Shown: positions 450 through 38,898 of the stretch, one piece after another
How the letters are laid out: every line of letters begins with the position of its first letter
Position numbering within the stretch: the first letter of the stretch is position 1
UHGV virus genome: UHGV-0112704
Length of the DNA stretch: 38,905 nucleotides
Origin: a virus
Strand: one strand, 5' to 3'
The notes under the pieces: generated by a model
Told to the model about the DNA's origin: nothing
The model's input: the letters and a program-made list of their open reading frames with translations, nothing else
The model's database searches: none
Program-made: the position numbers and the translations under genes

Positions 450-1164
450 GGATTTTCCTCGAAAAAAAACCGCCCTGGTAGGCGGTATTAAACTTGCTGG
501 CGAATCCTCTGGCCGAAGGGTTTCGCGAGAAACCGAATGTCAGACCAGGAGTCACCTGATAAAAATAATCGTATCGAACGCCCGCAGGTTTCGGCAGCAG
601 GCCAAGCTTCACAATCAGGCGTAACTCTTCAACTGATACCCGCGGCGAAACGTTCAAAGCAAGCGTCATGTCTTTTCTGTCGGTCACGTAAGCTTCGCCG
701 TTGAAAGCCGTCTGTATAACATCCTGCAGGCTGACCCGATCGTCTGACGCTATCGTTGCACCTGCGGCGTTTCGCGCAATTTTGACCCGAAGGAACCTGC
801 GATACTCATTGTCAGCCAGTTGATAGTCACCATATGCCGGCGAAAACTTGCTGTAGAAAGGTGCGCCGACATACGCCGCATTAGATTTACTGTCGAAGCC
901 TGCGGTATTCAGATGTCCGTCAAACCCGAAAAATACACGGGCAATAACAGCAGGCACACTACGGTGAAGGCCGACTATCCGGCCAATGACATCAAGCCGG
1001 TATCCGGTAACCCGGTCGAGATCAAAGTTATCTGGGTTACGAATAAAATCGGCGATGATTTGCCAGTGCCTGAGCATGGCCTGTATCTCTGATCTTGCTT
1101 TTTTCTTTTCCCAATATTGTTTGATGAGCATTAGCGTGTAGCGGTTAATGATGTCGTCATTCAC
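442..1164 (-). CDS. baseplate/tail protein, DUF2313 (Mu gp48 / YmfQ-like)
   Basis: 240 aa ORF; N-terminal region recalled as DUF2313-like; position between the J-like baseplate gene and the fibre gene. Confidence 0.55.
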   Translation of the reverse strand: MNDDIINRYTLMLIKQYWEKKKARSEIQAMLRHWQIIADFIRNPDNFDLDRVTGYRLDVIGRIVGLHRSVPAVIARVFFGFDGHLNTAGFDSKSNAAYVGAPFYSKFSPAYGDYQLADNEYRRFLRVKIARNAAGATIASDDRVSLQDVIQTAFNGEAYVTDRKDMTLALNVSPRVSVEELRLIVKLGLLPKPAGVRYDYFYQVTPGLTFGFSRNPSARGFASKFNTAYQGGFFSRKIHV

Positions 1165-19388: not shown

Positions 19389-19949
19389 ATGAAATACTCA
19401 CAGCAAGAAAAACTACAGATCATGATGCTCAGTGATATTCACCGAGCATTAGAAATTGAAAACTCATTTGATCCTGACCTCATTGACGAAGCAGTGAGCA
19501 CGGATAACTACTGGGCTTTATCCTGGGAATACCCAGGCCTTCAAGATGAAGAAGAGGAGACCCCCTGGGAAGTCCAGCTTTTCGTTGATACCTATGATAT
19601 GTATGACATTCTCCAATACACATACGAACGATTCAGTGCGGAAGACAAAGCAGAGGTTGCCAAATCTATTCGTAATTTCGATGAGAAATTATCACTCACA
19701 TTCCCCGGATTTGACGGTAACAACGAATCAAAGTTTCTTTTGATTGGTAGTTTATTGAAACGAATGGGACGGTTTAGCGGCAAAGACGATCTCACCCGGA
19801 ACTCTCACATGCCCTCTGTTGCAATTTACCAACGTATGCTTGAAGTTTTCCTTCCTGCCAGAGCTAAGAATTGGGTTCACAATGTGGGCATTACTAAACA
19901 TGATTTTATCGATACACTCAACGCGAGAGTGCATCCAGAAAATCGTTAA
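19389..19949 (+). CDS. YfbU-family (UPF0304) protein
   Basis: 186 aa; C-terminal block YQRMLEVFLPARAKNWVHNVGITKHDFIDTLNA resembles E. coli YfbU as I recall it. AGGA before the ATG. Opposite strand to the flanking terminase and lysis genes. Confidence 0.6.
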   Translation: MKYSQQEKLQIMMLSDIHRALEIENSFDPDLIDEAVSTDNYWALSWEYPGLQDEEEETPWEVQLFVDTYDMYDILQYTYERFSAEDKAEVAKSIRNFDEKLSLTFPGFDGNNESKFLLIGSLLKRMGRFSGKDDLTRNSHMPSVAIYQRMLEVFLPARAKNWVHNVGITKHDFIDTLNARVHPENR

Positions 19950-21576: not shown

Positions 21577-22368
21577 TCAATTACCCAATGGCTTATGTAG
21601 TTTAAATGGGTTAAGTGATTCTTCATTTTTCAGGCTTATCTTTAAATTCACAGCAATCAGTGAATGATCGTCAGTTGGTCCAGCGCGCTGTATCCGCTTA
21701 AAAAGATTGGTTGAAAAGTTAGTAGCATTCTTCAATGTATTGGGAGAAAAACGCGGGCGGCGTTCCCAGAAGTGATGGGCTCCATCGGACATCAGAAAAA
21801 GAGAAACAACACCGTCATGGTCCATCAAATCTGACAGGGGTAACGAAATATGCTGAAATTTTATTGGCAGGACTTTAGAAATAGCTGCAGTAAGCATGTT
21901 CTTTCCTGGTAAGTCTTCCAATTCCCTTTTCGTATATAACCCATCGTCGAGCAACTCTTGATGCTGTGAGTGATCTTTCGTTAGTAGTTTTAATTTGTTA
22001 TCAATTTTTACATACACCCGAGTATCGCCTACATGGATTACATTAAGTAACTCACCATGTACAACACAGTAGGATAATGTTGTTGCGGCCTTGCGCTTCT
22101 CTGAATCGAACTGAGATAGTTCAGATATTTTGTCTTTTGCACCACTAAGTATCGCATCAGGATCAGAACTGGCTTTCAGTTTATGAGTTGCGACATAGTC
22201 TACTGCAGCTTGCGCTGCTTCTTTAGCACCAGCATAAGACCCGACACCATCAGCAATAGCAAAAATGAAGCCATCATCACATTGTTGCGGGAGTAGTAAC
22301 GCATCTTGGTTTTCACGACCATGATCTTTGGGGCATGAAAATGCACCACAGCTCAACAACTCAATCAT
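21577..22368 (-). CDS. PP2C-family (PPM) Ser/Thr protein phosphatase
   Basis: 263 aa; PPM motifs RENQDA, FAIADGVGSYAGA, HVGDTRVY, LMSDGAHH, TDDHS; start overlaps the kinase stop (ATGA); about 39% GC. Confidence 0.8.
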   Translation of the reverse strand: MIELLSCGAFSCPKDHGRENQDALLLPQQCDDGFIFAIADGVGSYAGAKEAAQAAVDYVATHKLKASSDPDAILSGAKDKISELSQFDSEKRKAATTLSYCVVHGELLNVIHVGDTRVYVKIDNKLKLLTKDHSQHQELLDDGLYTKRELEDLPGKNMLTAAISKVLPIKFQHISLPLSDLMDHDGVVSLFLMSDGAHHFWERRPRFSPNTLKNATNFSTNLFKRIQRAGPTDDHSLIAVNLKISLKNEESLNPFKLHKPLGN

Positions 22369-23147
22369 TTGCCTCTCCTTGCTGCAACAATATCATCAAG
22401 AATGTCTATCATCTCAGTGACAGAATCGTACCTTGAACGAGGCGTAAATGCCGCTGATTTATCGATTAATGTCGTTATACCGTCAATATGAGATAGATTC
22501 ATTTCACTAGTAATAACACCTAGCGCGTAAATATCTGATTTCTGTGTATATACTCCGCGTTTAGCCTCGTCAGACATGTACTTAGCAGTGCCAATACCCA
22601 TTTTTTTGTTTTGAAGTACACCTGACAAAAAATCAGATTGGGCTTTCGAATCCATACTTTTGATTAGGCCGAAATCGGAAATTTTGTAACAGCCTCCTTC
22701 AAACTTGAGGATATTCTCAGGTTTCAGATCCCTGTGAAGCAACCCAGCGTCATGGATATACTTAACGCCTTCAAACACCATCTTCAGGGCTAACAGCTTT
22801 TCATCATCAGAAAGAACGCCCGCTTTTAGTTCGCTTCTTAGGTCTGTTTCTGCCAACTCCATCACAAACCAAGGGTTTTCTATGCTTAAATGATGTATGC
22901 AAATTCTTACAACATGATCATGATTGCACTTGGCTTGGTAGTCGACTTCACGCTTAAACCGACGCTTCCAGTCATCTACACTAAAATATTCATTTAATAA
23001 CGCAGGATTAACTGAAAGAACTTTCCTTGCATACTCACCACAAAGATGGCTATCGGTGTTATATACCTCAACCTTTTCCACACGACCAAAAGCACCAAAA
23101 CCTAGATCTCTCAATGGTTTTATAAGGTAATTACCCCTGGGTTCCAT
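22365..23147 (-). CDS. Hanks-type (eukaryotic-like) Ser/Thr protein kinase, minimal catalytic domain
   Basis: 260 aa; glycine loop LGFGAFGRV; Lys in YARKV; catalytic loop HRDLKPENI; DFG in ISDFGL; subdomain IX-like SDIYALG. About 39% GC against about 51% in the flanking structural genes. Confidence 0.85.
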   Translation of the reverse strand: MEPRGNYLIKPLRDLGFGAFGRVEKVEVYNTDSHLCGEYARKVLSVNPALLNEYFSVDDWKRRFKREVDYQAKCNHDHVVRICIHHLSIENPWFVMELAETDLRSELKAGVLSDDEKLLALKMVFEGVKYIHDAGLLHRDLKPENILKFEGGCYKISDFGLIKSMDSKAQSDFLSGVLQNKKMGIGTAKYMSDEAKRGVYTQKSDIYALGVITSEMNLSHIDGITTLIDKSAAFTPRSRYDSVTEMIDILDDIVAARRGK

Positions 23148-26902: not shown

Positions 26903-27136
26903 CTAATAAAACCAGTCGTCAGCGCTTTCCCAGGTATCCTGGAGGATTGATTCAATTTTCTTTTTATCGTCCTTGTCACCACCAAAAACACTTAACCCAT
27001 CGGCCCCGGCACGGCGGATTGTGAGCCTGCAATTGTCATAGTGATCATTCAGGCGCTTAAGCAGTTCTTTCTCCAGTGCTGGTACTGCGCCTTTAGGAAG
27101 TTCTTTCATGCGATCAATGGTTAATTCAACTTTCAT
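26903..27136 (-). CDS. DinI-like protein
   Basis: MKVELTIDRMKELPKGAVPALEKEL...KKKIESILQDTWESADDWFY resembles E. coli DinI (…ISEILQETWESADDWF…). The ATG at 27136 has a perfect GGAGG spacing and is preferred over the track start at 27148. Confidence 0.75.
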   Translation of the reverse strand: MKVELTIDRMKELPKGAVPALEKELLKRLNDHYDNCRLTIRRAGADGLSVFGGDKDDKKKIESILQDTWESADDWFY

Positions 27137-27246
27137 AATGGCCTCCATTGCATGTACTGTGTTTTTATACAGTATACCTATGCGCGGAAATGATCAACGT
27201 TTTAAGAGCACAAATTGTCAATTTTCTGTCAGTAGTAAAAAAAGAA

Positions 27247-27264
27247 AACCCGCCGTAGCGGGTT
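27247..27264 (-). terminator. hairpin terminator upstream of the DinI-like gene
   Basis: AACCCGC-CGTA-GCGGGTT, with a U-rich tract on the minus transcript (plus-strand AAAAAAAGAAA at 27237-27247). Confidence 0.4.
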
Positions 27265-27627
27265 GAATTAGCAGTGTTATATTAAGCGGCAATTTCTTTC
27301 TGCCGGCACAATCCCGAGAGATTCGCCCTCTGTATCGCATCATCAATGAGCACCTGTATGACCATGAGGCAAAGCGTTATCCAACTTGCATTCATCTTTT
27401 TCAATCAGCAAAGGAGTGGTTAGTGCTGTGAGTGGGCTTTGTTCACTTCATGGTAGATAAATCAGCTATGGATAAGTGATAAGAGGTGAAATCAATCCGA
27501 ATTAACAACCTGAAGCACATTAATCGGAACACAGATATTAAAATCCTAAAGTCTAGTAACAAATAGCCGATATGAGATATTGCTTATCAGTTTAAAAATA
27601 ATCTATTGAAAAAATGGGGGGGAGGCG

Positions 27628-28191
27628 TTGAAGCGAGTAGAGCGCGATTTTATCTGTCTGTTTAATTGTGTGTGGTATCAAGATTTCCCTGTGTTCAAAG
27701 GTGAATATATCAACCGTTCCAACTGGACCATTCATGTTGGCCTGGTCATGCGCGAGTGTGCAAAGTTAATGGGCGCAAGAACATTTTTTGAACAAGGCGG
27801 GCGTACCGATGCGGTCCTACAATATCCAGACAATCAAATTTTAACCTATGTTGAGTGGGAGTATAATCAGGCAGACAGAGATAGCGTTAACGAGTTAGAC
27901 AAACTGCTTGAAAAAAACGACAAGTGCTATTTCTCCACATTCATCTCATATTGTCAGCATGAAAACATCAATATTGTTATTGAAAAAGCAAGTAGAATAT
28001 GGAGTGAAGCAAGCAGGCCTTTGATTTTTTTTCTTATCACCTATGAGCCTCAAACGAAAAAACGCCGCCATTTTTTAGAACTCAGAACTTATTTTTTCTC
28101 AAACGGCAAAAGAAAACTAGTTCGCAAACAACCTGCGCTTCCATGGGATATTGAGCAACGAAAATACAATGTCGAAGAAGATGCAGGATAG
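27628..28191 (+). CDS. hypothetical protein (187 aa), AT-rich moron on the opposite strand
   Basis: Track ORF starts at a TTG; an out-of-frame ATG and a G7 tract sit immediately upstream (27614-27622). About 35% GC. No recognisable motif. Confidence 0.45.
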   Translation: MKRVERDFICLFNCVWYQDFPVFKGEYINRSNWTIHVGLVMRECAKLMGARTFFEQGGRTDAVLQYPDNQILTYVEWEYNQADRDSVNELDKLLEKNDKCYFSTFISYCQHENINIVIEKASRIWSEASRPLIFFLITYEPQTKKRRHFLELRTYFFSNGKRKLVRKQPALPWDIEQRKYNVEEDAG

Positions 28192-28230
28192 AAGAGACAT
28201 AAGGTTTTCACGACAGTCTCGTTTCGAGCC

Positions 28231-28612
28231 CTAACTAAAATATTCTGTTCGGAGCAACCAAATAGCTCTGGCTTTGCTGTGACCATGTTCGCGGTACCAA
28301 CGCCTCTCTAGGTCCGCTTCTCGCTCATGGTGGACCAAAATCAAATCTAAAATGACGTGGCTAAGCGGGAGTACATAGTGAATGACAGGATGCTCCGGGC
28401 AGCACCATACTAATTCAGTTCCCGTCAGAGGTAGGCGTTGCTTCATGATGGGATGAGCGCTCCCTCCAGACAATCCATGCGACAGCCGCCTCCCATGATA
28501 TATATCCATTACCGCCATTTTTCGCTCTGCGGAGATTAACTGCATTACCAAACCTTTCAATGATGAATTTTTCAAATTCTATGCGTTTTTCTTCGTCGAT
28601 TGTTGAATCCAT
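28231..28612 (-). pseudogene. two overlapping ORF fragments, possibly one frameshift-disrupted gene
   Basis: Track ORFs 28415-28612 and 28231-28575 overlap in different frames. Confidence 0.2.
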
Positions 28613-28891
28613 ACCTTCCCCAGAAGAGTCCTACGAATCGCTCTTATTGCATAAAAAATAGCATATACAATAGAGAGTGAAAAACCGACGTAGCGGGTTA
28701 ACTTTATGTTACTCATGAGTCTTGTCTCGCTGCGACTTAAAAGCGGAACATTCTCGCGCAAGTTGCGTTGCTAAAGCTACGGGGTTGAATGGCTCTCCAT
28801 GCCCATTTAAGAAGGCATGCGGTGTGTAGTTGAACGTTATTTAAAACACAGATAGAATCAAGAAAAATCCTAAATAAATGGAATATTGTTT

Positions 28892-29272
28892 ATGGCTAAG
28901 AAAATCGCATTACTGGGCTTTTCTGCTCTTTTTGTTGCAAGTGTTGCTTTTGCTGAAACGACAAGTAACTGGGTTGAGGTTACTACAGCTGATGATGGCA
29001 TTTTTTCAGCAAAAAAAGGCACATTTAGAAATGTAAAAGGTGATTCATCTGCCTTGTTCATGTATCAAACAAAAAATAAAAAAGTAGAGTACTACAAAGT
29101 TAGTATTAAAGATGCCGACTGTGATAGTGGATATGGGGAGATAAGATTCTTCTATATGGATGGGAAATTAGCTTTCAAAGGTGATTATGTTGCTGATGGG
29201 AACAGTGTTGGCGCAGGTATTGGTGATTTTATGTGTGGGGTCAGAATTGGACTTAACACACAAAAAAGTTAA
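28892..29272 (+). CDS. secreted/periplasmic protein with cleavable signal peptide (moron)
   Basis: MAKKIALLGFSALFVASVAFA then ETT: basic n-region, hydrophobic core, AxA cleavage site, no lipobox Cys; about 35% GC. The ATG at 28892 is preferred over the TTG at 28886. Confidence 0.55.
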   Translation: MAKKIALLGFSALFVASVAFAETTSNWVEVTTADDGIFSAKKGTFRNVKGDSSALFMYQTKNKKVEYYKVSIKDADCDSGYGEIRFFYMDGKLAFKGDYVADGNSVGAGIGDFMCGVRIGLNTQKS

Positions 29273-34969: not shown

Positions 34970-35107
34970 CGTAAAACCCGCGCAAGGCGGGATTCACGTC
35001 CGGTGCCACCGACCAAAGTTACACCGGAATTTATACCAAACCAAAAAACATCCAATGGGCGCTATCTCTGGCCCGGGGATTCTAACACTCAAAAAAGAGG
35101 ATCTCAC

Positions 35108-37771
35108 ATGGAATTTTTCCATCTGATAAAAGCCAGTCAGAAGTCTGGCAAGAAAGATGCAGTGATTTGGTTCACTGCGAAAAGTGTAGCGCGCGCCAAT
35201 CTCCAACTCGATGTGGCACTGGAAGAAGCCGGAATTGAAGAAACTGGCCGCGGTAAAGATTATGCCAAACCAATCCGCACCGATTTCCCGGTATATGACG
35301 ACCTGCCGGAAGAAGGCGCAGTGGATTACACCTGGTGCAAACGCTACGAACTGCAGAACGATGACCGCACCTGGCTGCCAAAAGTCACAGCTGAAAACTC
35401 TGACGAGAAAACGGCTCAGACCGTTGATAGTCACATAACTACTGAGTCAACGCTGCCAGAAACCGCTGGCATCACGCTGGACGAACACGACGACGACTCA
35501 ACCCTCTACCCGGTAGTGCAGATGCCGTTTCGTAAGCAACTGCTTTCCCAGTTCACCGCCGACGAACTGCGCCACCACGTAACCCGCGAAGAGTACGAAG
35601 CTATCGGCGCGCTGGAGATGGACACTGATAACAGTTACGTCCAGAACTTGCTGTTAGCTGCTGAGAACTGCCCGGAAGTGAAGGGTTACGACACCAAAGA
35701 CCTGTGGCGCTACACCGATGCCATTCGCAAAGTGTTCAGCCAGGACAAGCGTCACGAACTCGCGCTGGTACTCCGTTTCACCAGAATGTGGGCGGCGACT
35801 GATTACATTGACCGTGGCATCCTGGCGCGTGAATGGGCTGCCGGTAATCACATCAGTAGTGTTCAGCGTACTGATTCCGGAACCAATGCCAACGGCGGTT
35901 ATGTCACTGACCGTGGACCTGATGCATACCATACCCTTGACACTCTCGATTTAGAGATTGCATGTGCCCTTCTGCCTATGGACTTCAACCATCTGGAAAT
36001 CCCGGGCAGCATCCACCGCCGCGCCAAGGAGATTGTCGCGAACAAAGAAGAACCATGGAAATCATGGAGCAAAATCCTGCGCAACCAGCCCGGCGTTCTG
36101 GCTGTTAACCGCGCGGCCATCTTCAACCTGGTGCGCATCGCGCCTGAGAATATCCACCTAACGCCGGTTGCTCATCTGGAGTTCGTAAACCAGACGATGA
36201 CGGCTGAATTTAATGCTGCGACTGAGTTGCTGCCTATTTATGGCAATAGCGAGCATAAGCAGGAAGTAGTTACCCAGGAAATGGTAGATGCGGCATGGCA
36301 GAAGGTTGATGAAGTGTTGGAAGAGTTTCATGGCGAGTTGAACGCCGGTGAACAAAAACGACCTGAACCTGCGCTTTCTGTTGTGGATCTGATGCGCCAG
36401 CGCGCTGCTGATGAAAGGCTTCACCCAGCAAACATTGAAGCAACCTCCACTGATAGCCAGCCTCAGGTCGCTAACCTCGGCGGCGGCATGTTCTCCATTG
36501 ATGGCCTGATGAGCGAAAAACAACCACAAACAGATGACCGTTCACCGGTTACAGAGGAGACCACCAGCGATGTGCAGATGGAAGAGACTGACCCGGCGGA
36601 AGGAGAAACTGGTAACACGGTTCCACCAGGCGAAAGCTCTGATGCAGCTGATCCGCAAACAGCTTCCCTGACCCCGGCTGAGGTTCTGGCTGCCGTGGCG
36701 CCGGAGCTGGCGAACGACTCACAGCCGGAAATGACCACCGAAGCACCGGAGGAAATCGCCAGCACGCCGGAATACCCTGCCTATTTCGAACCGGGCCGCT
36801 ATGAAGGCCTGCCGAACAACATTTACCACGCAGCGAACGGGATCAGCAGCACCCAGTTGAAAGATGCGCGCGTTAGCCTGATGTTCTATCACGGTCGCCA
36901 CGTGACCAAGACAATCCGTCGCGAGAGCAGCGAGGCGCTGACGTTCGGTAGCCTGTCTCACACGATGGCACTGGAACCGGAAAAGCTTCACGAAGAGTTC
37001 GCGGTGTTCCCGGGCGTTCCGGAGGGAGCATTTACCACTACCGACTCCATGAAGGCGTTCATCCGCGAATTTAATGCGGATAAGCCAAAGGCCGAGCAAC
37101 TGAAGCTCACAGGCAAGAAAGAGGAACTGCAGGCGGCGATCCGCGCGGTGAATCCGGATGCCATTTTCGCTGATGAGTTCGAGCAGGAATGGCGAGATAG
37201 CGTTGCCGGGAAAACCATCCTGTCCAGTGAGCAGTTGGCGCTGGCCACGGCAATTCAGCAGGCCCTGCTTAACCATGAATCGGCCGGAAAACTACTGCGC
37301 CACCCTTCCCGTTCAGTCGAAACCAGTTACTTCGGTATGGACGACGAAACTGGCCTTGAAGTCCGTGTACGCCCGGACCTTGAGGTTGAAATAAACGGCG
37401 TTCGTATCGGCGTTGACCTGAAAACGATCAGCATGGGCCGCGTTAAGCAGGAAGGCCTGCGCGCCAAGCTGCACCGGGAAATCATCGACCGCGATTACCA
37501 CCTCAGCGCGGGCATGTACTGCAGCGTCGCTGACTTTGATCAGTTCTTCTGGATCTTCGTTAACAAAGACGAGGGTTACCACTGGGTTGCGGTCATTGAG
37601 GCTTCGGAGGAACTGCTGGCGCTTGGCCGAGAGGAATATCAGAAAACCATGCGCGCCCTGGCTAAGGCTTATGACACCAACTGCTGGCCTGCGCCGATCA
37701 CCGAAGACTACACCGACGAACTGAACGACTTCGACCTGCGCCGCCTTGAAGCGCTGCGTACTCAGGCATAA
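35108..37771 (+). CDS. recE: exodeoxyribonuclease VIII (RecE-like)
   Basis: 887 aa from the ATG at 35108 (AAGAGGA upstream); blocks TDFPVYDDLPEEGAVDYTWCKRYEL and DYIDRGILAREWAAGNHISSVQRTDSGTNANGGYVTDRG resemble E. coli RecE as I recall it; acidic Pro/Glu-rich linker; C-terminal nuclease-like domain; followed by an annealing-protein gene. Confidence 0.7.
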   Translation: MEFFHLIKASQKSGKKDAVIWFTAKSVARANLQLDVALEEAGIEETGRGKDYAKPIRTDFPVYDDLPEEGAVDYTWCKRYELQNDDRTWLPKVTAENSDEKTAQTVDSHITTESTLPETAGITLDEHDDDSTLYPVVQMPFRKQLLSQFTADELRHHVTREEYEAIGALEMDTDNSYVQNLLLAAENCPEVKGYDTKDLWRYTDAIRKVFSQDKRHELALVLRFTRMWAATDYIDRGILAREWAAGNHISSVQRTDSGTNANGGYVTDRGPDAYHTLDTLDLEIACALLPMDFNHLEIPGSIHRRAKEIVANKEEPWKSWSKILRNQPGVLAVNRAAIFNLVRIAPENIHLTPVAHLEFVNQTMTAEFNAATELLPIYGNSEHKQEVVTQEMVDAAWQKVDEVLEEFHGELNAGEQKRPEPALSVVDLMRQRAADERLHPANIEATSTDSQPQVANLGGGMFSIDGLMSEKQPQTDDRSPVTEETTSDVQMEETDPAEGETGNTVPPGESSDAADPQTASLTPAEVLAAVAPELANDSQPEMTTEAPEEIASTPEYPAYFEPGRYEGLPNNIYHAANGISSTQLKDARVSLMFYHGRHVTKTIRRESSEALTFGSLSHTMALEPEKLHEEFAVFPGVPEGAFTTTDSMKAFIREFNADKPKAEQLKLTGKKEELQAAIRAVNPDAIFADEFEQEWRDSVAGKTILSSEQLALATAIQQALLNHESAGKLLRHPSRSVETSYFGMDDETGLEVRVRPDLEVEINGVRIGVDLKTISMGRVKQEGLRAKLHREIIDRDYHLSAGMYCSVADFDQFFWIFVNKDEGYHWVAVIEASEELLALGREEYQKTMRALAKAYDTNCWPAPITEDYTDELNDFDLRRLEALRTQA

Positions 37772-37776
37772 GGGGA

Positions 37777-38898
37777 ATGACGATGGAAAACATGAATATC
37801 GTAAATGCGGAGCAGCAGGCTCCAAACACTATCTCTGCCAGCAACGCCATCTTCAATGTGCAGGCGTTAACCCAGCTGCAGGCAGTTGCCGGTTTGATGG
37901 CGCAGGCCGCCGTAACGGTCCCTGAACATCTTCGCGGCAACCCAGCTGACTGCATGGCCATCATCATGCAGGCTATGCAGTGGGGCATGAACCCGTACGC
38001 GGTGGCGCAGAAAACGCACCTGGTCAACGGCGTGCTGGGGTACGAAGCGCAACTGGTGAACGCGGTGATCTCCAGCTCTAACGCCATTGTGGGCCGCTTC
38101 CATTATGAGTACGAGGGTGACTGGTCGAAATGCGCCAGCAGCCGCGAAGAGATAGTGAAGAAGCCAGCAAAAGGCGGCGGGACGTACGACAAGAAAGAAA
38201 TGGTACGCGGCTGGACCAGCGCCGACGAGCAAGGCCTGTCGGTTCGTGTGGGTGCCGTCATTCGCGGCGAAAGCGAAATCACCTGGGGCGAACCGGTGTT
38301 CCTCTCCAGTGTGATTACGCGTAACTCTCCGCTGTGGATTTCGAATCCGAAGCAGCAGATCGCGTATCTGGCCCTCAAATACTGGGCGCGCCTGTACTGC
38401 CCAGCAGTTGTTCTGGGCGTGTACACACCTGATGAAGTGGAGCAGCGCACCGAGAAGGAGATTAACCCGGCCCCCGCCCAGCGCGTAAGCCTGTCTGATA
38501 TCAAAAGTGACAGCGTAACAACAACGCACAGCGCGCAGGAATCGGCGGCAAACATTGACGCTATGGCCGATGAGTTCCGGGATCGTATTGAAGCGACGCA
38601 GGACGTGGATAACGCCAAAGCAGTTCGGGCCGACATCGAAAGCGCCAAGAACACCTTGGGCTCTGCACTGTATACCGAGCTGAAAAATAAGGCCGTGAAG
38701 CGTTACCACTTGGTGGATGCGTATAACCGGGTCGAGGCAGCAATCAACTCCCTGCCGCAGCCCGGCGAACCGGATGGTGCCGAGCGCTTCGAGGAAGTCG
38801 AGCGCGTGCTGGCGTCAGCCAAACGTCACTTGGGCGATGAGCTGCACGATAAGTTCAGCATCACCCTGGCGGATATGAAACCGGAATACGTGGCCTGA
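37777..38898 (+). CDS. RecT/Red-beta-family single-strand annealing protein
   Basis: Block ADCMAIIMQAMQWGMNPYAVAQKTHLVNGVLGYEAQL resembles the conserved annealing-protein core; partner position after RecE. Start may be the ATG at 37783 (AAGGGG 7 nt upstream). Longer than E. coli RecT, with a C-terminal extension. Confidence 0.55.
   Translation: MTMENMNIVNAEQQAPNTISASNAIFNVQALTQLQAVAGLMAQAAVTVPEHLRGNPADCMAIIMQAMQWGMNPYAVAQKTHLVNGVLGYEAQLVNAVISSSNAIVGRFHYEYEGDWSKCASSREEIVKKPAKGGGTYDKKEMVRGWTSADEQGLSVRVGAVIRGESEITWGEPVFLSSVITRNSPLWISNPKQQIAYLALKYWARLYCPAVVLGVYTPDEVEQRTEKEINPAPAQRVSLSDIKSDSVTTTHSAQESAANIDAMADEFRDRIEATQDVDNAKAVRADIESAKNTLGSALYTELKNKAVKRYHLVDAYNRVEAAINSLPQPGEPDGAERFEEVERVLASAKRHLGDELHDKFSITLADMKPEYVA

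What the first reader, a model, noticed from the sequence alone, without database searches (positions are those of the whole stretch)
27614..28191. Orphan 187 aa gene whose start is entangled with a G7 homopolymer
The ORF in the track starts at a TTG. Immediately upstream is ATG followed by seven G, and that ATG is out of frame by one nucleotide: with eight G it would read M-G-G-E-A-L-K-R-V-E-R in frame with the ORF. So either the gene is switched by slippage at the G tract (phase variation), or it is inactivated, or the tract is miscounted in the sequence. The protein has no motif I recognise. A single-gene AT-rich cargo with switchable expression fits an exclusion or abortive-infection protein.
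Basis: partly seen in the sequence, partly recalled or inferred. Interest (0 to 1): 0.55.

Follow-up and report, generated by a model that had tools for sequence, protein, structure and literature searches.

The report
Prophage nuclease gene with slippery RBS
This is an intact, conserved gene for a small BamHI-like nuclease carried by prophages and other mobile elements; the run of G in front of it is its ribosome-binding site, which varies between 6 and 8 G among strains but cannot switch the reading frame off, and the gene seems to be driven by the flagellar sigma factor.

Summary
The sequence observation is correct: ATG 27614-16, a G7 run 27616-22 that includes the G of that ATG, and TTG 27628. 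G7 gives MGGRR-stop; G8 would fuse the ATG in frame.

The gene is not an orphan. It belongs to a rare, unannotated family of about 187 aa in Pantoea, Pseudomonas and Dehalococcoidia. Almost all members begin MKR[VI]ERDF at the codon that is TTG here.

The six closest relatives also start at TTG, behind an ordinary AAGGA(G) Shine-Dalgarno, with no G tract and no upstream ATG. So the G run plus AGG is the ribosome-binding site.

The tract does vary in nature. G6, G7 and G8 occur in otherwise identical 1.5-kb haplotypes, and the G8-fused 192-aa product is on 70 contigs against 721 for the 187-aa product. No length touches the TTG frame, and a rough initiation model predicts a difference of 1 kcal/mol or less. 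I read it as an ordinary homopolymer hot spot, not an on/off switch.

A near-consensus sigma-28 (FliA) promoter at 27547-27573 is conserved upstream in enterobacterial homologues. That was unexpected.

The parts
27547..27573 (+). Predicted sigma-28 (FliA) promoter: TAAAGTCT-N11-GCCGATAT. The inferred transcription start is near 27581, giving a 5' UTR of about 47 nt.
   Evidence: It matches the consensus TAAAGTTT-n11-GCCGATAA (PMC2859248) at 14 of 16 positions. It is the only site with 3 or fewer mismatches in the window. Both blocks and the 11-nt spacing, but not the spacer sequence, are conserved 35-55 nt upstream of 9 of 10 enterobacterial homologues. Of the 9 sites scoring >=13/16 in 209 kb of those loci, 8 sit at this position. 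No sigma-70-like site lies upstream.
27614..27631 (+). Five-codon upstream mini-ORF (MGGRR*) created by the ATG in the G7 state. Its TGA overlaps the TTG start.
   Evidence: In G6 copies it becomes a 16-codon out-of-frame uORF. In G8 copies it fuses to the gene. The ATG has no Shine-Dalgarno upstream; the model gives about +10 kcal/mol.
27616..27625 (+). G7 run (27616-27622) plus AGG: the Shine-Dalgarno region of the gene and a length-polymorphic homopolymer.
   Evidence: Duplex energy with the anti-SD is -10 to -11.3 kcal/mol in several registers, against -12.2 for AAGGAGG in the Pantoea orthologue. It sits where AAGGA(G) sits in homologues. G6, G7 and G8 alleles are seen. There are 4-5 independent length changes on the tree.
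27628..28191 (+). CDS of 187 aa with a TTG start: a solitary BamHI-like PD-(D/E)xK-fold protein from a family with no Pfam, NCBIfam, PHROG or PADLOC model.
27790..27903 (+). Putative catalytic core: E55 (27790-92), D61 (27808-10), E76 (27853-55), E78 (27859-61) and K92 (27901-03).
   Evidence: E55, E76 and E78 are invariant, and D61 and K92 are at least 90% conserved, in 73 members of 19-60% identity. D61 sits at the start of strand 62-65 and E76/E78 lie in strand 71-81. hhalign pairs D61, E76, E78 and K92 with BamHI D94, E111, E113 and K126, but weakly (E 0.019, probability 2.4%).
28025..28032 (+). T8 run inside the gene: a second slippage site that truncates the protein in some natural copies.
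   Evidence: One search lists the run. P0186 (149 aa, 13 E. coli contigs) diverges exactly here...LIFFLSPMSLKRKNAAIF.

Best explanation
Window 27628-28191 is a functional gene for a small (187 aa) Mg-dependent nuclease of the restriction-endonuclease (PD-(D/E)xK) fold. It is of the BamHI type, in which the third catalytic residue is Glu. The gene travels as a self-contained, single-gene cassette in lambdoid prophages of Citrobacter and E. coli, in ICEs and megaplasmids of Pantoea and Pseudomonas, and in chromosomal islets.

Translation starts at the TTG, which is the conserved family N-terminus. The G run plus AGG is the Shine-Dalgarno element. The out-of-frame ATG is a by-product that lies inside the 5' UTR and has no ribosome-binding site of its own.

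The G run is an ordinary replication-slippage hot spot, so natural copies carry G6, G7 or G8. Because it lies upstream of the start codon, none of these states interrupts the ORF. G8 merely allows a minor 192-aa isoform. The expected effect on expression is small.

Transcription is most likely from a sigma-28 (FliA) promoter. If so, the nuclease would be made only in cells that are building flagella, and at a low level because the weak TTG start is conserved.

Shown: gene reality, start position, tract polymorphism, fold, conserved acidic residues, conserved promoter-like element. Inferred: nuclease activity, FliA dependence, low expression. The biological role (most plausibly protection of the lysogen against incoming DNA or phage) is not established.
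For: Start and ribosome-binding site:
- 32 of 33 homologues align from the TTG codon, at lengths of 185-191 aa.
- The closest relatives read aaggaggttccgTTG, aaaggattacttTTG, aaaggagttattTTG and gaaggattttgttTTG. More distant ones use ATG or GTG at the same codon. None has a G tract or an upstream ATG.
- Anti-SD pairing of the G run is -10 to -11 kcal/mol.
- The model gives the UUG start +0.4, -0.6 and -0.3 kcal/mol for G6, G7 and G8, against about +10 for the AUG.
- PGAP calls the TTG.

Gene is real: dN/dS is 0.03-0.06. The exact product occurs on 721 contigs.

Tract is a hot spot:
- G6/G7/G8 alleles are seen.
- L002 and L050 (G7) are identical over 1.5 kb to L057 and L061 (G8).
- The tract changes 4-5 times on the tree, which is 130-280 times the per-site rate.
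- Runs of 7-8 G:C are known indel hot spots in E. coli (PMC8510543).

Solitary: there is no conserved neighbour, and no methyltransferase family among the ORFs scanned across window 18-39 kb.

Promoter: with the consensus and bona fide FliA promoters from PMC2859248 and PMC4183435.
Against: - GGAGG itself lies only 2 nt from the TTG. Initiation must therefore use the G run, with G:U wobble, as the Shine-Dalgarno. This is untested.
- G8 copies make up about 12% of contigs and occur on at least 3 haplotype backgrounds and 2 protein alleles. That could also reflect selection for an ATG-started form.
- No nuclease assay exists. The sequence-level link to BamHI is weak (hhalign probability 2.4%). 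Foldseek against the PDB gives only low TM-scores (0.37-0.43) and ranks YaeQ and nitrilases first.
- In Dehalococcoidia the homologue is followed, in three loci, by a CoA-transferase gene that begins at or a few bases past its stop. That context does not look like defence.
- The sigma-28 assignment rests on sequence only, and fluorescens-group Pseudomonas loci lack the motif.
Confidence: 0.6

Rival explanations
1. Translational phase variation by choice of start codon. On this view the ATG is the efficient start. G8 cells make much more nuclease (ON or high), while G6 and G7 cells make little or none from the weak TTG (OFF or low). Slippage would then stochastically set the dose of a costly or toxic nuclease in the lysogen population.
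For: - The tract length is polymorphic, with recurrent G7-to-G8 changes in identical haplotypes.
- The G8-fused product is on 70 and 35 contigs on two protein alleles.
- ATG is intrinsically a far better start codon than TTG (established knowledge).
- Switching between alternative translational starts is a recognised mode of SSR control in Neisseria (PMC5084427).
- In the same study, tracts of 8 or more were the ones predominantly found variable (PMC5084427).
Against: - The ATG has no Shine-Dalgarno; the model gives about +10 kcal/mol against about 0 for the UUG.
- About 88% of copies are G6 or G7, yet they keep an intact ORF.
- Orthologues under strong purifying selection use TTG with no ATG or tract, so TTG-started protein is evidently sufficient.
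- G6-G8 is short for a contingency locus.
- The tract is absent from all other family members.
- The observed number of changes is what a neutral 7-8 G:C run would give.
Confidence: 0.2
2. uORF-mediated tuning. Ribosomes that start at the ATG translate a mini-ORF whose end depends on tract length. At G7 it stops on the TTG (UUGA overlap), allowing termination-reinitiation coupling. At G6 it runs 16 codons across the start in another frame and could occlude it. The three tract lengths would therefore give three graded expression levels.
For: The geometry is exact: MGGRR* with TGA overlapping TTG at G7, a 16-codon overlapping uORF at G6, and fusion at G8.
Against: It needs appreciable initiation at an ATG without a Shine-Dalgarno. 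No homologue has a comparable uORF. There are no expression data.
Confidence: 0.1
3. Artefact or decay: the G7 count is a sequencing or assembly error, or the gene is a frameshifted pseudogene.
For: Homopolymers are error-prone in some sequencing technologies. NCTC11023 shows a 1-base deletion elsewhere in the gene. Truncated alleles exist (P0186).
Against: The same length recurs in independent assemblies and follows haplotype groups. The TTG ORF is complete. dN/dS is 0.03-0.06.
Confidence: 0.03
4. A different role for the protein. It may not be an anti-phage nuclease. It could be (a) a Type II or Type IV-like restriction enzyme whose protective methylation, or lack of target, is provided elsewhere in the host. 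Or it could be (b) a structure-specific recombination or repair nuclease, or a motility-linked factor of the flagellar regulon.
For: (a) The fold and size are BamHI-like. Alternative cargo in the same prophage slot includes DNA methyltransferase genes or remnants.

(b) In pQBR57-type megaplasmids the gene lies beside recA and an ERCC4 nuclease gene. The sigma-28 promoter is conserved. The neighbours in Dehalococcoidia are metabolic genes.
Against: There is no linked methyltransferase in any locus, no added DNA-modification reader domain in 187 aa, and no flagellar genes nearby. None of these roles was tested.
Confidence: 0.3

Closest known systems
BamHI / OkrAI / BstYI / BglII Type IIP restriction endonucleases
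   Different: There is no significant sequence homology (no Pfam hit; hhalign probability 2.4%). No adjacent methyltransferase is present. The gene is carried as a lone prophage, ICE or plasmid gene. Specificity and activity are unknown.
NucC (cyclic-trinucleotide-activated nuclease of CBASS and type III CRISPR)
   Different: NucC is about 240 aa and is always linked to a cyclase or CRISPR system. Here there is no such neighbour and no PADLOC match.
flxA of the E. coli Qin prophage and other non-flagellar FliA-dependent genes
   Same: flxA is a prophage-borne gene of unknown function with a FliA-dependent promoter. Its ChIP-seq-confirmed site TAAAGATT-N11-GCCGATAG matches the consensus at 14 of 16 positions, like the site here (PMC4183435).
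   Different: The proteins are unrelated (from memory, FlxA is about 110 aa). FliA dependence of the present gene is predicted, not measured.
Simple-sequence-repeat contingency loci (Neisseria, Haemophilus, Campylobacter; the Bifidobacterium breve pilus G tract)
   Same: A G/C homopolymer at the 5' end of a gene varies in length between strains. Alternative-start switching is a described mode (PMC5084427), and G-tract slippage switches are known (PMC9187656).
   Different: Here the tract is short (6-8) and lies upstream of the conserved start codon, so no length disrupts the ORF. It is not conserved in homologues. The host genera are not known for SSR-based phase variation. Within-culture switching is untested.
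Lambdoid-prophage 'morons' (autonomously transcribed accessory genes)
   Same: It is an opposite-strand, AT-rich gene with its own promoter, inserted in a variable slot between the replication genes and DinI/nin.
   Different: Most characterised morons use sigma-70 promoters. This one carries a sigma-28-type promoter that moves with the gene across element types.

Membership tests
PD-(D/E)xK (restriction-endonuclease-like) superfamily | Core alpha-beta-beta-beta-alpha-beta fold. | tested here: met
PD-(D/E)xK (restriction-endonuclease-like) superfamily | Conserved acidic residues at the start of strand 2 and within strand 3 (D...(D/E)xK or a variant). | tested here: met
   D61 precedes strand 62-65, and E76-W-E78 lies in strand 71-81. 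E55, E76 and E78 are invariant and D61 is at least 90% conserved in 73 diverse members. The third position is E, as in BamHI.
PD-(D/E)xK (restriction-endonuclease-like) superfamily | Metal-dependent phosphodiester cleavage. | not testable with these tools
   Needs purified protein.
BamHI-like Type II restriction-modification systems | Detectable sequence homology to BamHI, OkrAI or BstYI. | tested here: inconclusive
   There is no Pfam or PDB sequence hit. hhalign finds only a 51-column local match at E 0.019 and probability 2.4%, but it is in active-site register.
BamHI-like Type II restriction-modification systems | Adjacent cognate DNA methyltransferase. | tested here: not met
   No conserved neighbour in 32 loci. 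No methyltransferase within 6 kb in annotated copies. No methyltransferase Pfam among the ORFs scanned across window 18-39 kb.
SSR-mediated phase-variable (contingency) locus | Repeat tract whose length varies between closely related strains. | tested here: met
   G6, G7 and G8 occur in near-identical copies. Identical haplotypes differ only in the tract. There are 4-5 changes on the tree.
SSR-mediated phase-variable (contingency) locus | A change in tract length switches expression on or off, through reading frame or promoter spacing. | tested here: not met
   The tract lies upstream of the conserved TTG start, so the ORF is intact in all states. It lies downstream of the predicted promoter. 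The model predicts 1 kcal/mol or less difference. A quantitative effect is not excluded.
SSR-mediated phase-variable (contingency) locus | High-frequency, reversible switching within a clonal culture. | not testable with these tools
   Needs raw reads or deep amplicon sequencing.
Sigma-28 (FliA) regulon, class 3-type promoter | Match to TAAAGTTT-N11-GCCGATAA at a suitable distance upstream of the gene. | tested here: met
   14 of 16 positions at 27547-27573. Homologues score 12-14 of 16 with exact spacing. Of 9 sites scoring >=13/16 in 209 kb, 8 lie upstream of this family. The consensus is from PMC2859248 and bona fide sites of equal quality are in PMC4183435.
Sigma-28 (FliA) regulon, class 3-type promoter | FliA-dependent transcription in vivo. 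| not testable with these tools
   Needs a 5' end map and a comparison of fliA and flgM mutants.
Catalogued anti-phage defence systems | Match to a defence-protein model. | tested here: not met
   PADLOC-DB v2.0.0 gives 0 families at E<=1. No informative PHROG hit.

The most novel reading that the evidence does not exclude
A methylase-less BamHI-like nuclease would be a mobile, single-gene defence or exclusion module wired into the host flagellar regulon through a sigma-28 promoter that travels with it. It would therefore be armed only in motile cells, for example against flagellotropic phages or DNA met while swimming. Its dose would be kept low by a conserved TTG start. In the Citrobacter/E. 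coli prophage lineage, slippage in a poly-G Shine-Dalgarno (G6/G7/G8, with G8 unlocking an ATG-started isoform) would additionally make that dose heritably heterogeneous.
Probability: 0.12. Interest if true: 0.7.

Novelty: new member of a known kind. Interest (0 to 1): 0.42.

Why it matters
The phase-variation reading that drew attention is largely deflated. The G tract is a ribosome-binding site that happens to be a slippage hot spot, which is a useful caution for scans that flag every 'ATG plus homopolymer, one base out of frame'.

What remains of value is threefold.
- A rare, widely scattered and entirely unannotated family of small restriction-endonuclease-fold proteins is carried as lone genes on prophages, ICEs and megaplasmids. 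This raises the question of how a methylase-less nuclease is tolerated.
- A flagellar sigma-28 promoter appears to be part of the mobile cassette. That would be an unusual coupling of mobile-element cargo to host motility, and it is directly testable.
- There is a documented natural allelic series (G6, G7, G8) at a translation-initiation region that could be used to measure how homopolymer Shine-Dalgarno length affects expression.

Tried and rejected
Searches that found nothing useful:
- Pfam, PHROGs, PADLOC and NCBIfam scans of the protein gave nothing usable. A Pfam scan of 73 diverse members gave only scattered single chance hits.
- Profile searches of PDB sequences with A2 and A3 gave nothing.
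- tblastn against 50,697 phage records gave no match.
- Foldseek against the PDB gave low TM-scores, with YaeQ and nitrilases on top, so it was not relied on. Foldseek against BFVD gave nothing at E<=1e-3. afdb50 was unavailable.
- The sigma-70 promoter scan found no site upstream of the gene, and no + strand terminator after it.
- Rfam found no RNA family in 27100-28700.
- A literature search for the protein accession gave no paper.

Ideas tested and dropped:
- Conserved-neighbour search across 32 loci: the only large 'conserved' clusters are the gene itself and shadow ORFs on its other strand; the rest are clade-specific neighbours in 2-6 loci. So there is no family-wide partner, immunity gene or methylase.
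- In-frame G5 and G11 products: neither is in the 15-billion-protein collection.
- P0097, a 1950-aa 'homologue' with 15 matched stretches, is a translated tandem repeat and therefore spurious.
- NucC-like or CBASS effector: rejected for lack of any cyclase or CRISPR neighbour.
- Miscounted tract or pseudogene: rejected.

Full report
**1. The observation**

The sequence is as described. It reads ...ctattgaaaaaATGGGGGGGAGGCGTTGAAGCGA..., with ATG at 27614-16. The G run spans 27616-22, which is seven G if the G of the ATG is counted. TTG is at 27628.

The ATG frame reads MGGRR-stop, and its TGA overlaps the TTG. One additional G gives MGGEALKRVERDF... in frame. The TTG is the first possible start in its frame, because an in-frame TGA lies at 27607-09.

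The locus is AT-rich, with GC 0.38-0.40 against 0.50 for the window. A single G/C run of 7 or more in 38.9 kb is not more than chance; a first-order Markov model expects 2.3.

**2. Setting**

The window is a lambdoid prophage read on the minus strand. Its genes include antiterminator Q, NinG, DUF1367/NinB, DinI, a dATP/dGTP pyrophosphohydrolase, DUF977, replication O, YdaT, RecT and a RecE-like protein. The target gene is on the opposite strand.

Only 3 of 5,426 complete E. coli genomes carry it. Fifty others share the DinI side, but homology stops at window ~27303-27330. Other cargo, or none, follows there, including methyltransferase genes or remnants. The gene therefore sits in a variable cargo slot.

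The exact protein is nevertheless common in draft assemblies. It occurs on 721 contigs, mostly from the Citrobacter freundii complex and E. coli.

**3. Not an orphan, and the start is the TTG**

A search of 5.8 billion proteins gave 34 relatives from Pantoea and Pseudomonas, mostly 185-191 aa. An exhaustive profile search gave 183 cluster representatives at E<=1e-3 out of 1.84 billion. One of them, P0097, is a spurious repeat translation. A genome scan added Dehalococcoidia, Chloroflexota and Bathyarchaeia MAGs.

In the alignment, almost every member begins MKR[VI]ERDF at the column of the window's TTG, and residues 1-22 are nearly invariant.

The DNA upstream of the homologues settles the start:
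- Pantoea wallisii (95% identical) reads gaaaaggaggttccgTTG.
- Ca. P. deserta reads gcaaaggattacttTTG.
- Three metagenomic relatives (86, 82 and 79% identical) read aaaggagttattTTG, ataaggacgtagttTTG and gaaggattttgttTTG.
- More distant members use ATG or GTG at the same codon, behind AAGGA.

None has a G tract or an upstream ATG. The window's GGGGGGGAGG lies where the Shine-Dalgarno lies in all relatives.

The G run pairs with the 16S 3' end at -10 to -11.3 kcal/mol in several registers, against -12.2 for AAGGAGG.

A rough Salis-type initiation model gives the UUG start +0.4, -0.6 and -0.3 kcal/mol for G6, G7 and G8. It gives about +10 kcal/mol for the upstream AUG, which has no Shine-Dalgarno. 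This model is crude and should be taken as an indication only.

The gene is under strong purifying selection. dN/dS is 0.03-0.06 against the TTG-started orthologues.

**4. The tract really is polymorphic**

I looked up the hypothetical G8 product (192 aa) by exact sequence. It exists on 70 contigs. On a second protein allele (A121T) the fused form is on 35 contigs, against 50 for the unfused form. In-frame G5 and G11 products do not exist in the collection.

The DNA of 20 contigs fetched through the two products shows G6 (6 contigs), G7 (4) and G8 (10). Pattern scans that are not conditioned on the protein give:
- IMG/VR: G6 x5, G7 x1, G8 x1.
- Metagenomes: G7 x5, G6 x1.
- Complete E. coli genomes: G7 x3.

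Over window 27160-28650, 27 copies fall into 19 haplotypes. One haplotype is shared, without a single difference, by two G7 copies (L002, L050) and two G8 copies (L057, L061). L052 (G7) and L053 (G8) are sisters. G6 copies share the G allele at the SNP at 27795 but are spread over three branches of the tree.

Parsimony needs 4-5 tract changes, against 0.018-0.032 changes per ordinary site. That is 130-280 times the per-site rate. This is the behaviour expected of a 7-8 bp G:C run, since such runs are recognised indel hot spots in E. coli (PMC8510543). It does not by itself require selection.

The length is not a miscount, because it is reproducible and follows haplotype groups.

**5. What the lengths do**

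G6 gives a 16-codon out-of-frame uORF across the start. G7 gives MGGRR* ending on the TTG. G8 puts the ATG in frame.

In all three the TTG ORF and its Shine-Dalgarno persist, so frame-based on/off switching is excluded. A quantitative effect remains possible: an ATG-started isoform at G8, or uORF coupling or occlusion. I keep these as rivals at 0.2 and 0.1.

Alternative-start switching is a known SSR mode in Neisseria, where tracts of 8 or more are the ones predominantly found variable (PMC5084427).

The TTG start is conserved across six enterobacterial lineages at dS above 0.5. This suggests that low translation is selected, as might be expected for a hazardous enzyme. That is inference.

**6. 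The protein**

There is no hit in Pfam, NCBIfam, PHROGs or PADLOC, nor for 73 diverse members, nor to PDB sequences.

In 73 members of 19-60% identity, E55, E76 and E78 are invariant. D61, H36, T34, W77, E89 and K92 are at least 90% conserved. D61 sits at the start of strand 2, and E76-W-E78 lies in strand 3. That is the canonical placement, with Glu in the third position as in BamHI.

hhalign of the family against BamHI plus OkrAI gives only a weak local match (E 0.019, probability 2.4%). However, it pairs D61 with D94, E76 with E111, E78 with E113 and K92 with K126.

I therefore file the protein in the PD-(D/E)xK superfamily, BamHI-like in architecture. I do not file it as a member of the BamHI family or of an R-M system:
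- No neighbour is conserved across 32 loci.
- No methyltransferase is near it in any annotated copy.
- No methyltransferase family appears among the ORFs scanned across window 18-39 kb.

Contexts of the homologues are as follows:
- Lambdoid prophages.
- An ICE on a Pantoea plasmid.
- pQBR57-type megaplasmids, next to recA and an ERCC4 nuclease gene.
- Small chromosomal islets in Pseudomonas.
- In Dehalococcoidia, three loci in which a CoA-transferase gene follows directly.

Natural knock-outs exist. One is a frameshift at the internal T8 run (P0186, 13 contigs). Another is a 1-base deletion in NCTC11023.

**7. An unexpected promoter**

Aligning the upstream regions of enterobacterial homologues showed two conserved blocks with a fixed spacing and a variable spacer. 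In the window they read TAAAGTCT-N11-GCCGATAT at 27547-27573.

The published sigma-28 consensus is TAAAGTTT-n11-GCCGATAA (PMC2859248). ChIP-seq-confirmed FliA promoters are no closer to it: motA is TAAACTTT...GCCGATAT, flxA is TAAAGATT...GCCGATAG and fliC is TAAAGGTT...GACGATAA (PMC4183435).

The window site is the only one with 3 or fewer mismatches in 38.9 kb. That alone is weak, since 25% of shuffles have one. The comparative evidence is much stronger:
- Nine of ten enterobacterial homologues, in unrelated contexts, score 12-14 of 16 at 35-55 nt upstream of the start.
- In 209 kb of those loci (both strands) only nine sites reach 13/16, and eight of them are at this position.
- Four P. putida-group loci have TCAAnnTT-N11-GCCG(A/T)(A/T)AA at the same place. 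Fluorescens-group loci do not.
- No sigma-70-like promoter lies upstream.

I infer that the cassette carries its own FliA-dependent promoter, with a start near 27581. The ATG and the G run would then lie inside a 47-nt leader. This is a prediction from sequence. flxA of the Qin prophage is a precedent for a FliA-dependent prophage gene (PMC4183435).

**8. Verdict**

Slippage does occur, but it acts on a ribosome-binding site upstream of a conserved TTG start. The gene is neither inactivated nor frame-switched.

The object is an intact, solitary, BamHI-like nuclease-fold gene of an undescribed family. It is mobile, is probably transcribed by sigma-28 RNA polymerase and is weakly translated. Its biological role is unknown. 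Defence or exclusion is the most plausible reading, but it is untested.

It is a new member of a known kind. Interest is moderate and comes mainly from the promoter and the methylase-less nuclease, not from the G tract.

Noticed in passing
window 27547-27573 (+); also L004 5939-5965, L005 5936-5962, L013 5938-5964, L040 5926-5952, L078 154-180, L080 243-269, L081 957-983: A near-consensus sigma-28 (FliA) flagellar promoter, TAA[A/T]GT..-N11-[G/T]CCGATA[A/T], is conserved upstream of the nuclease gene in unrelated mobile-element contexts. This implies co-regulation with motility.
   Followed up: partly
L078 about 1081-1107, minus strand: The only other site in 209 kb of related loci that scores >=13/16 for sigma-28 (TAAAGCTT-N11-GCCGATAA, 15/16) lies on the opposite strand of the same short contig. 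It is upstream of, or inside the 5' end of, the neighbouring 102-aa ORF.
   Followed up: no
window 21577-23147 (-): A eukaryotic-type Ser/Thr protein kinase (Pkinase, 2.9e-32) and a PP2C phosphatase (5.7e-15) are encoded as overlapping genes between antiterminator Q and the lysis genes. This is a kinase/phosphatase cargo pair in the late-operon moron position.
   Followed up: no
window 28025-28032 (T8) and 28161; P0186, L003: Two further natural frameshift alleles of the gene exist. One is slippage at the internal T8 run, giving a 149-aa truncation on 13 E. coli contigs. The other is A4 to A3 in NCTC11023, giving a 201-aa annotated product. They suggest occasional loss of function.
   Followed up: partly
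window 28886-29272 (+): A second opposite-strand, very AT-rich (GC 0.35-0.38) cargo gene encodes a 128-aa protein with an N-terminal signal-peptide-like segment (MFMAKKIALLGFSALFVASVAFA...). It has no Pfam hit and is present in all prophage copies examined.
   Followed up: no
window ~27303-27330 (boundary); L070, L071: Homology to about 50 other E. coli prophages ends just past the DinI terminator. The slot between replication P and DinI holds different cargo in different phages, including DNA cytosine methyltransferase remnants, or almost nothing.
   Followed up: partly
L024 3106-4823, L030 3703-5447, L033 1274-3018: In Dehalococcoidia MAGs the homologue is followed directly by a family III CoA-transferase gene; from the coordinates the two reading frames overlap by about 4 bases. 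A radical-SAM and an NfeD gene lie upstream. This looks like a stable, non-mobile context and is at odds with a defence role.
   Followed up: no
window 27600: An A/C SNP lies in the 5' leader (aaaaatAatc against aaaaatCatc). The A allele is seen only in G7 copies. It is the only other variable position in the leader, between the predicted promoter and the start codon.
   Followed up: no
P0097 (one search hit list): A 1950-aa 'protein' that matched the profile in 15 stretches is a translated tandem DNA repeat (GRTDIVLSYPDE... units). It is a false positive in the representative library.
   Followed up: yes
window 35003-37771 (+) and 37777-38898 (+): A RecE-like 922-aa protein (Exonuc_VIII plus a PDDEXK DUF3799 domain) lies at 35003-37771; a RecT-family hit in the set is probably the adjacent 373-aa ORF. 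A YfbU-domain ORF lies at 19389-19949 (+).
   Followed up: no
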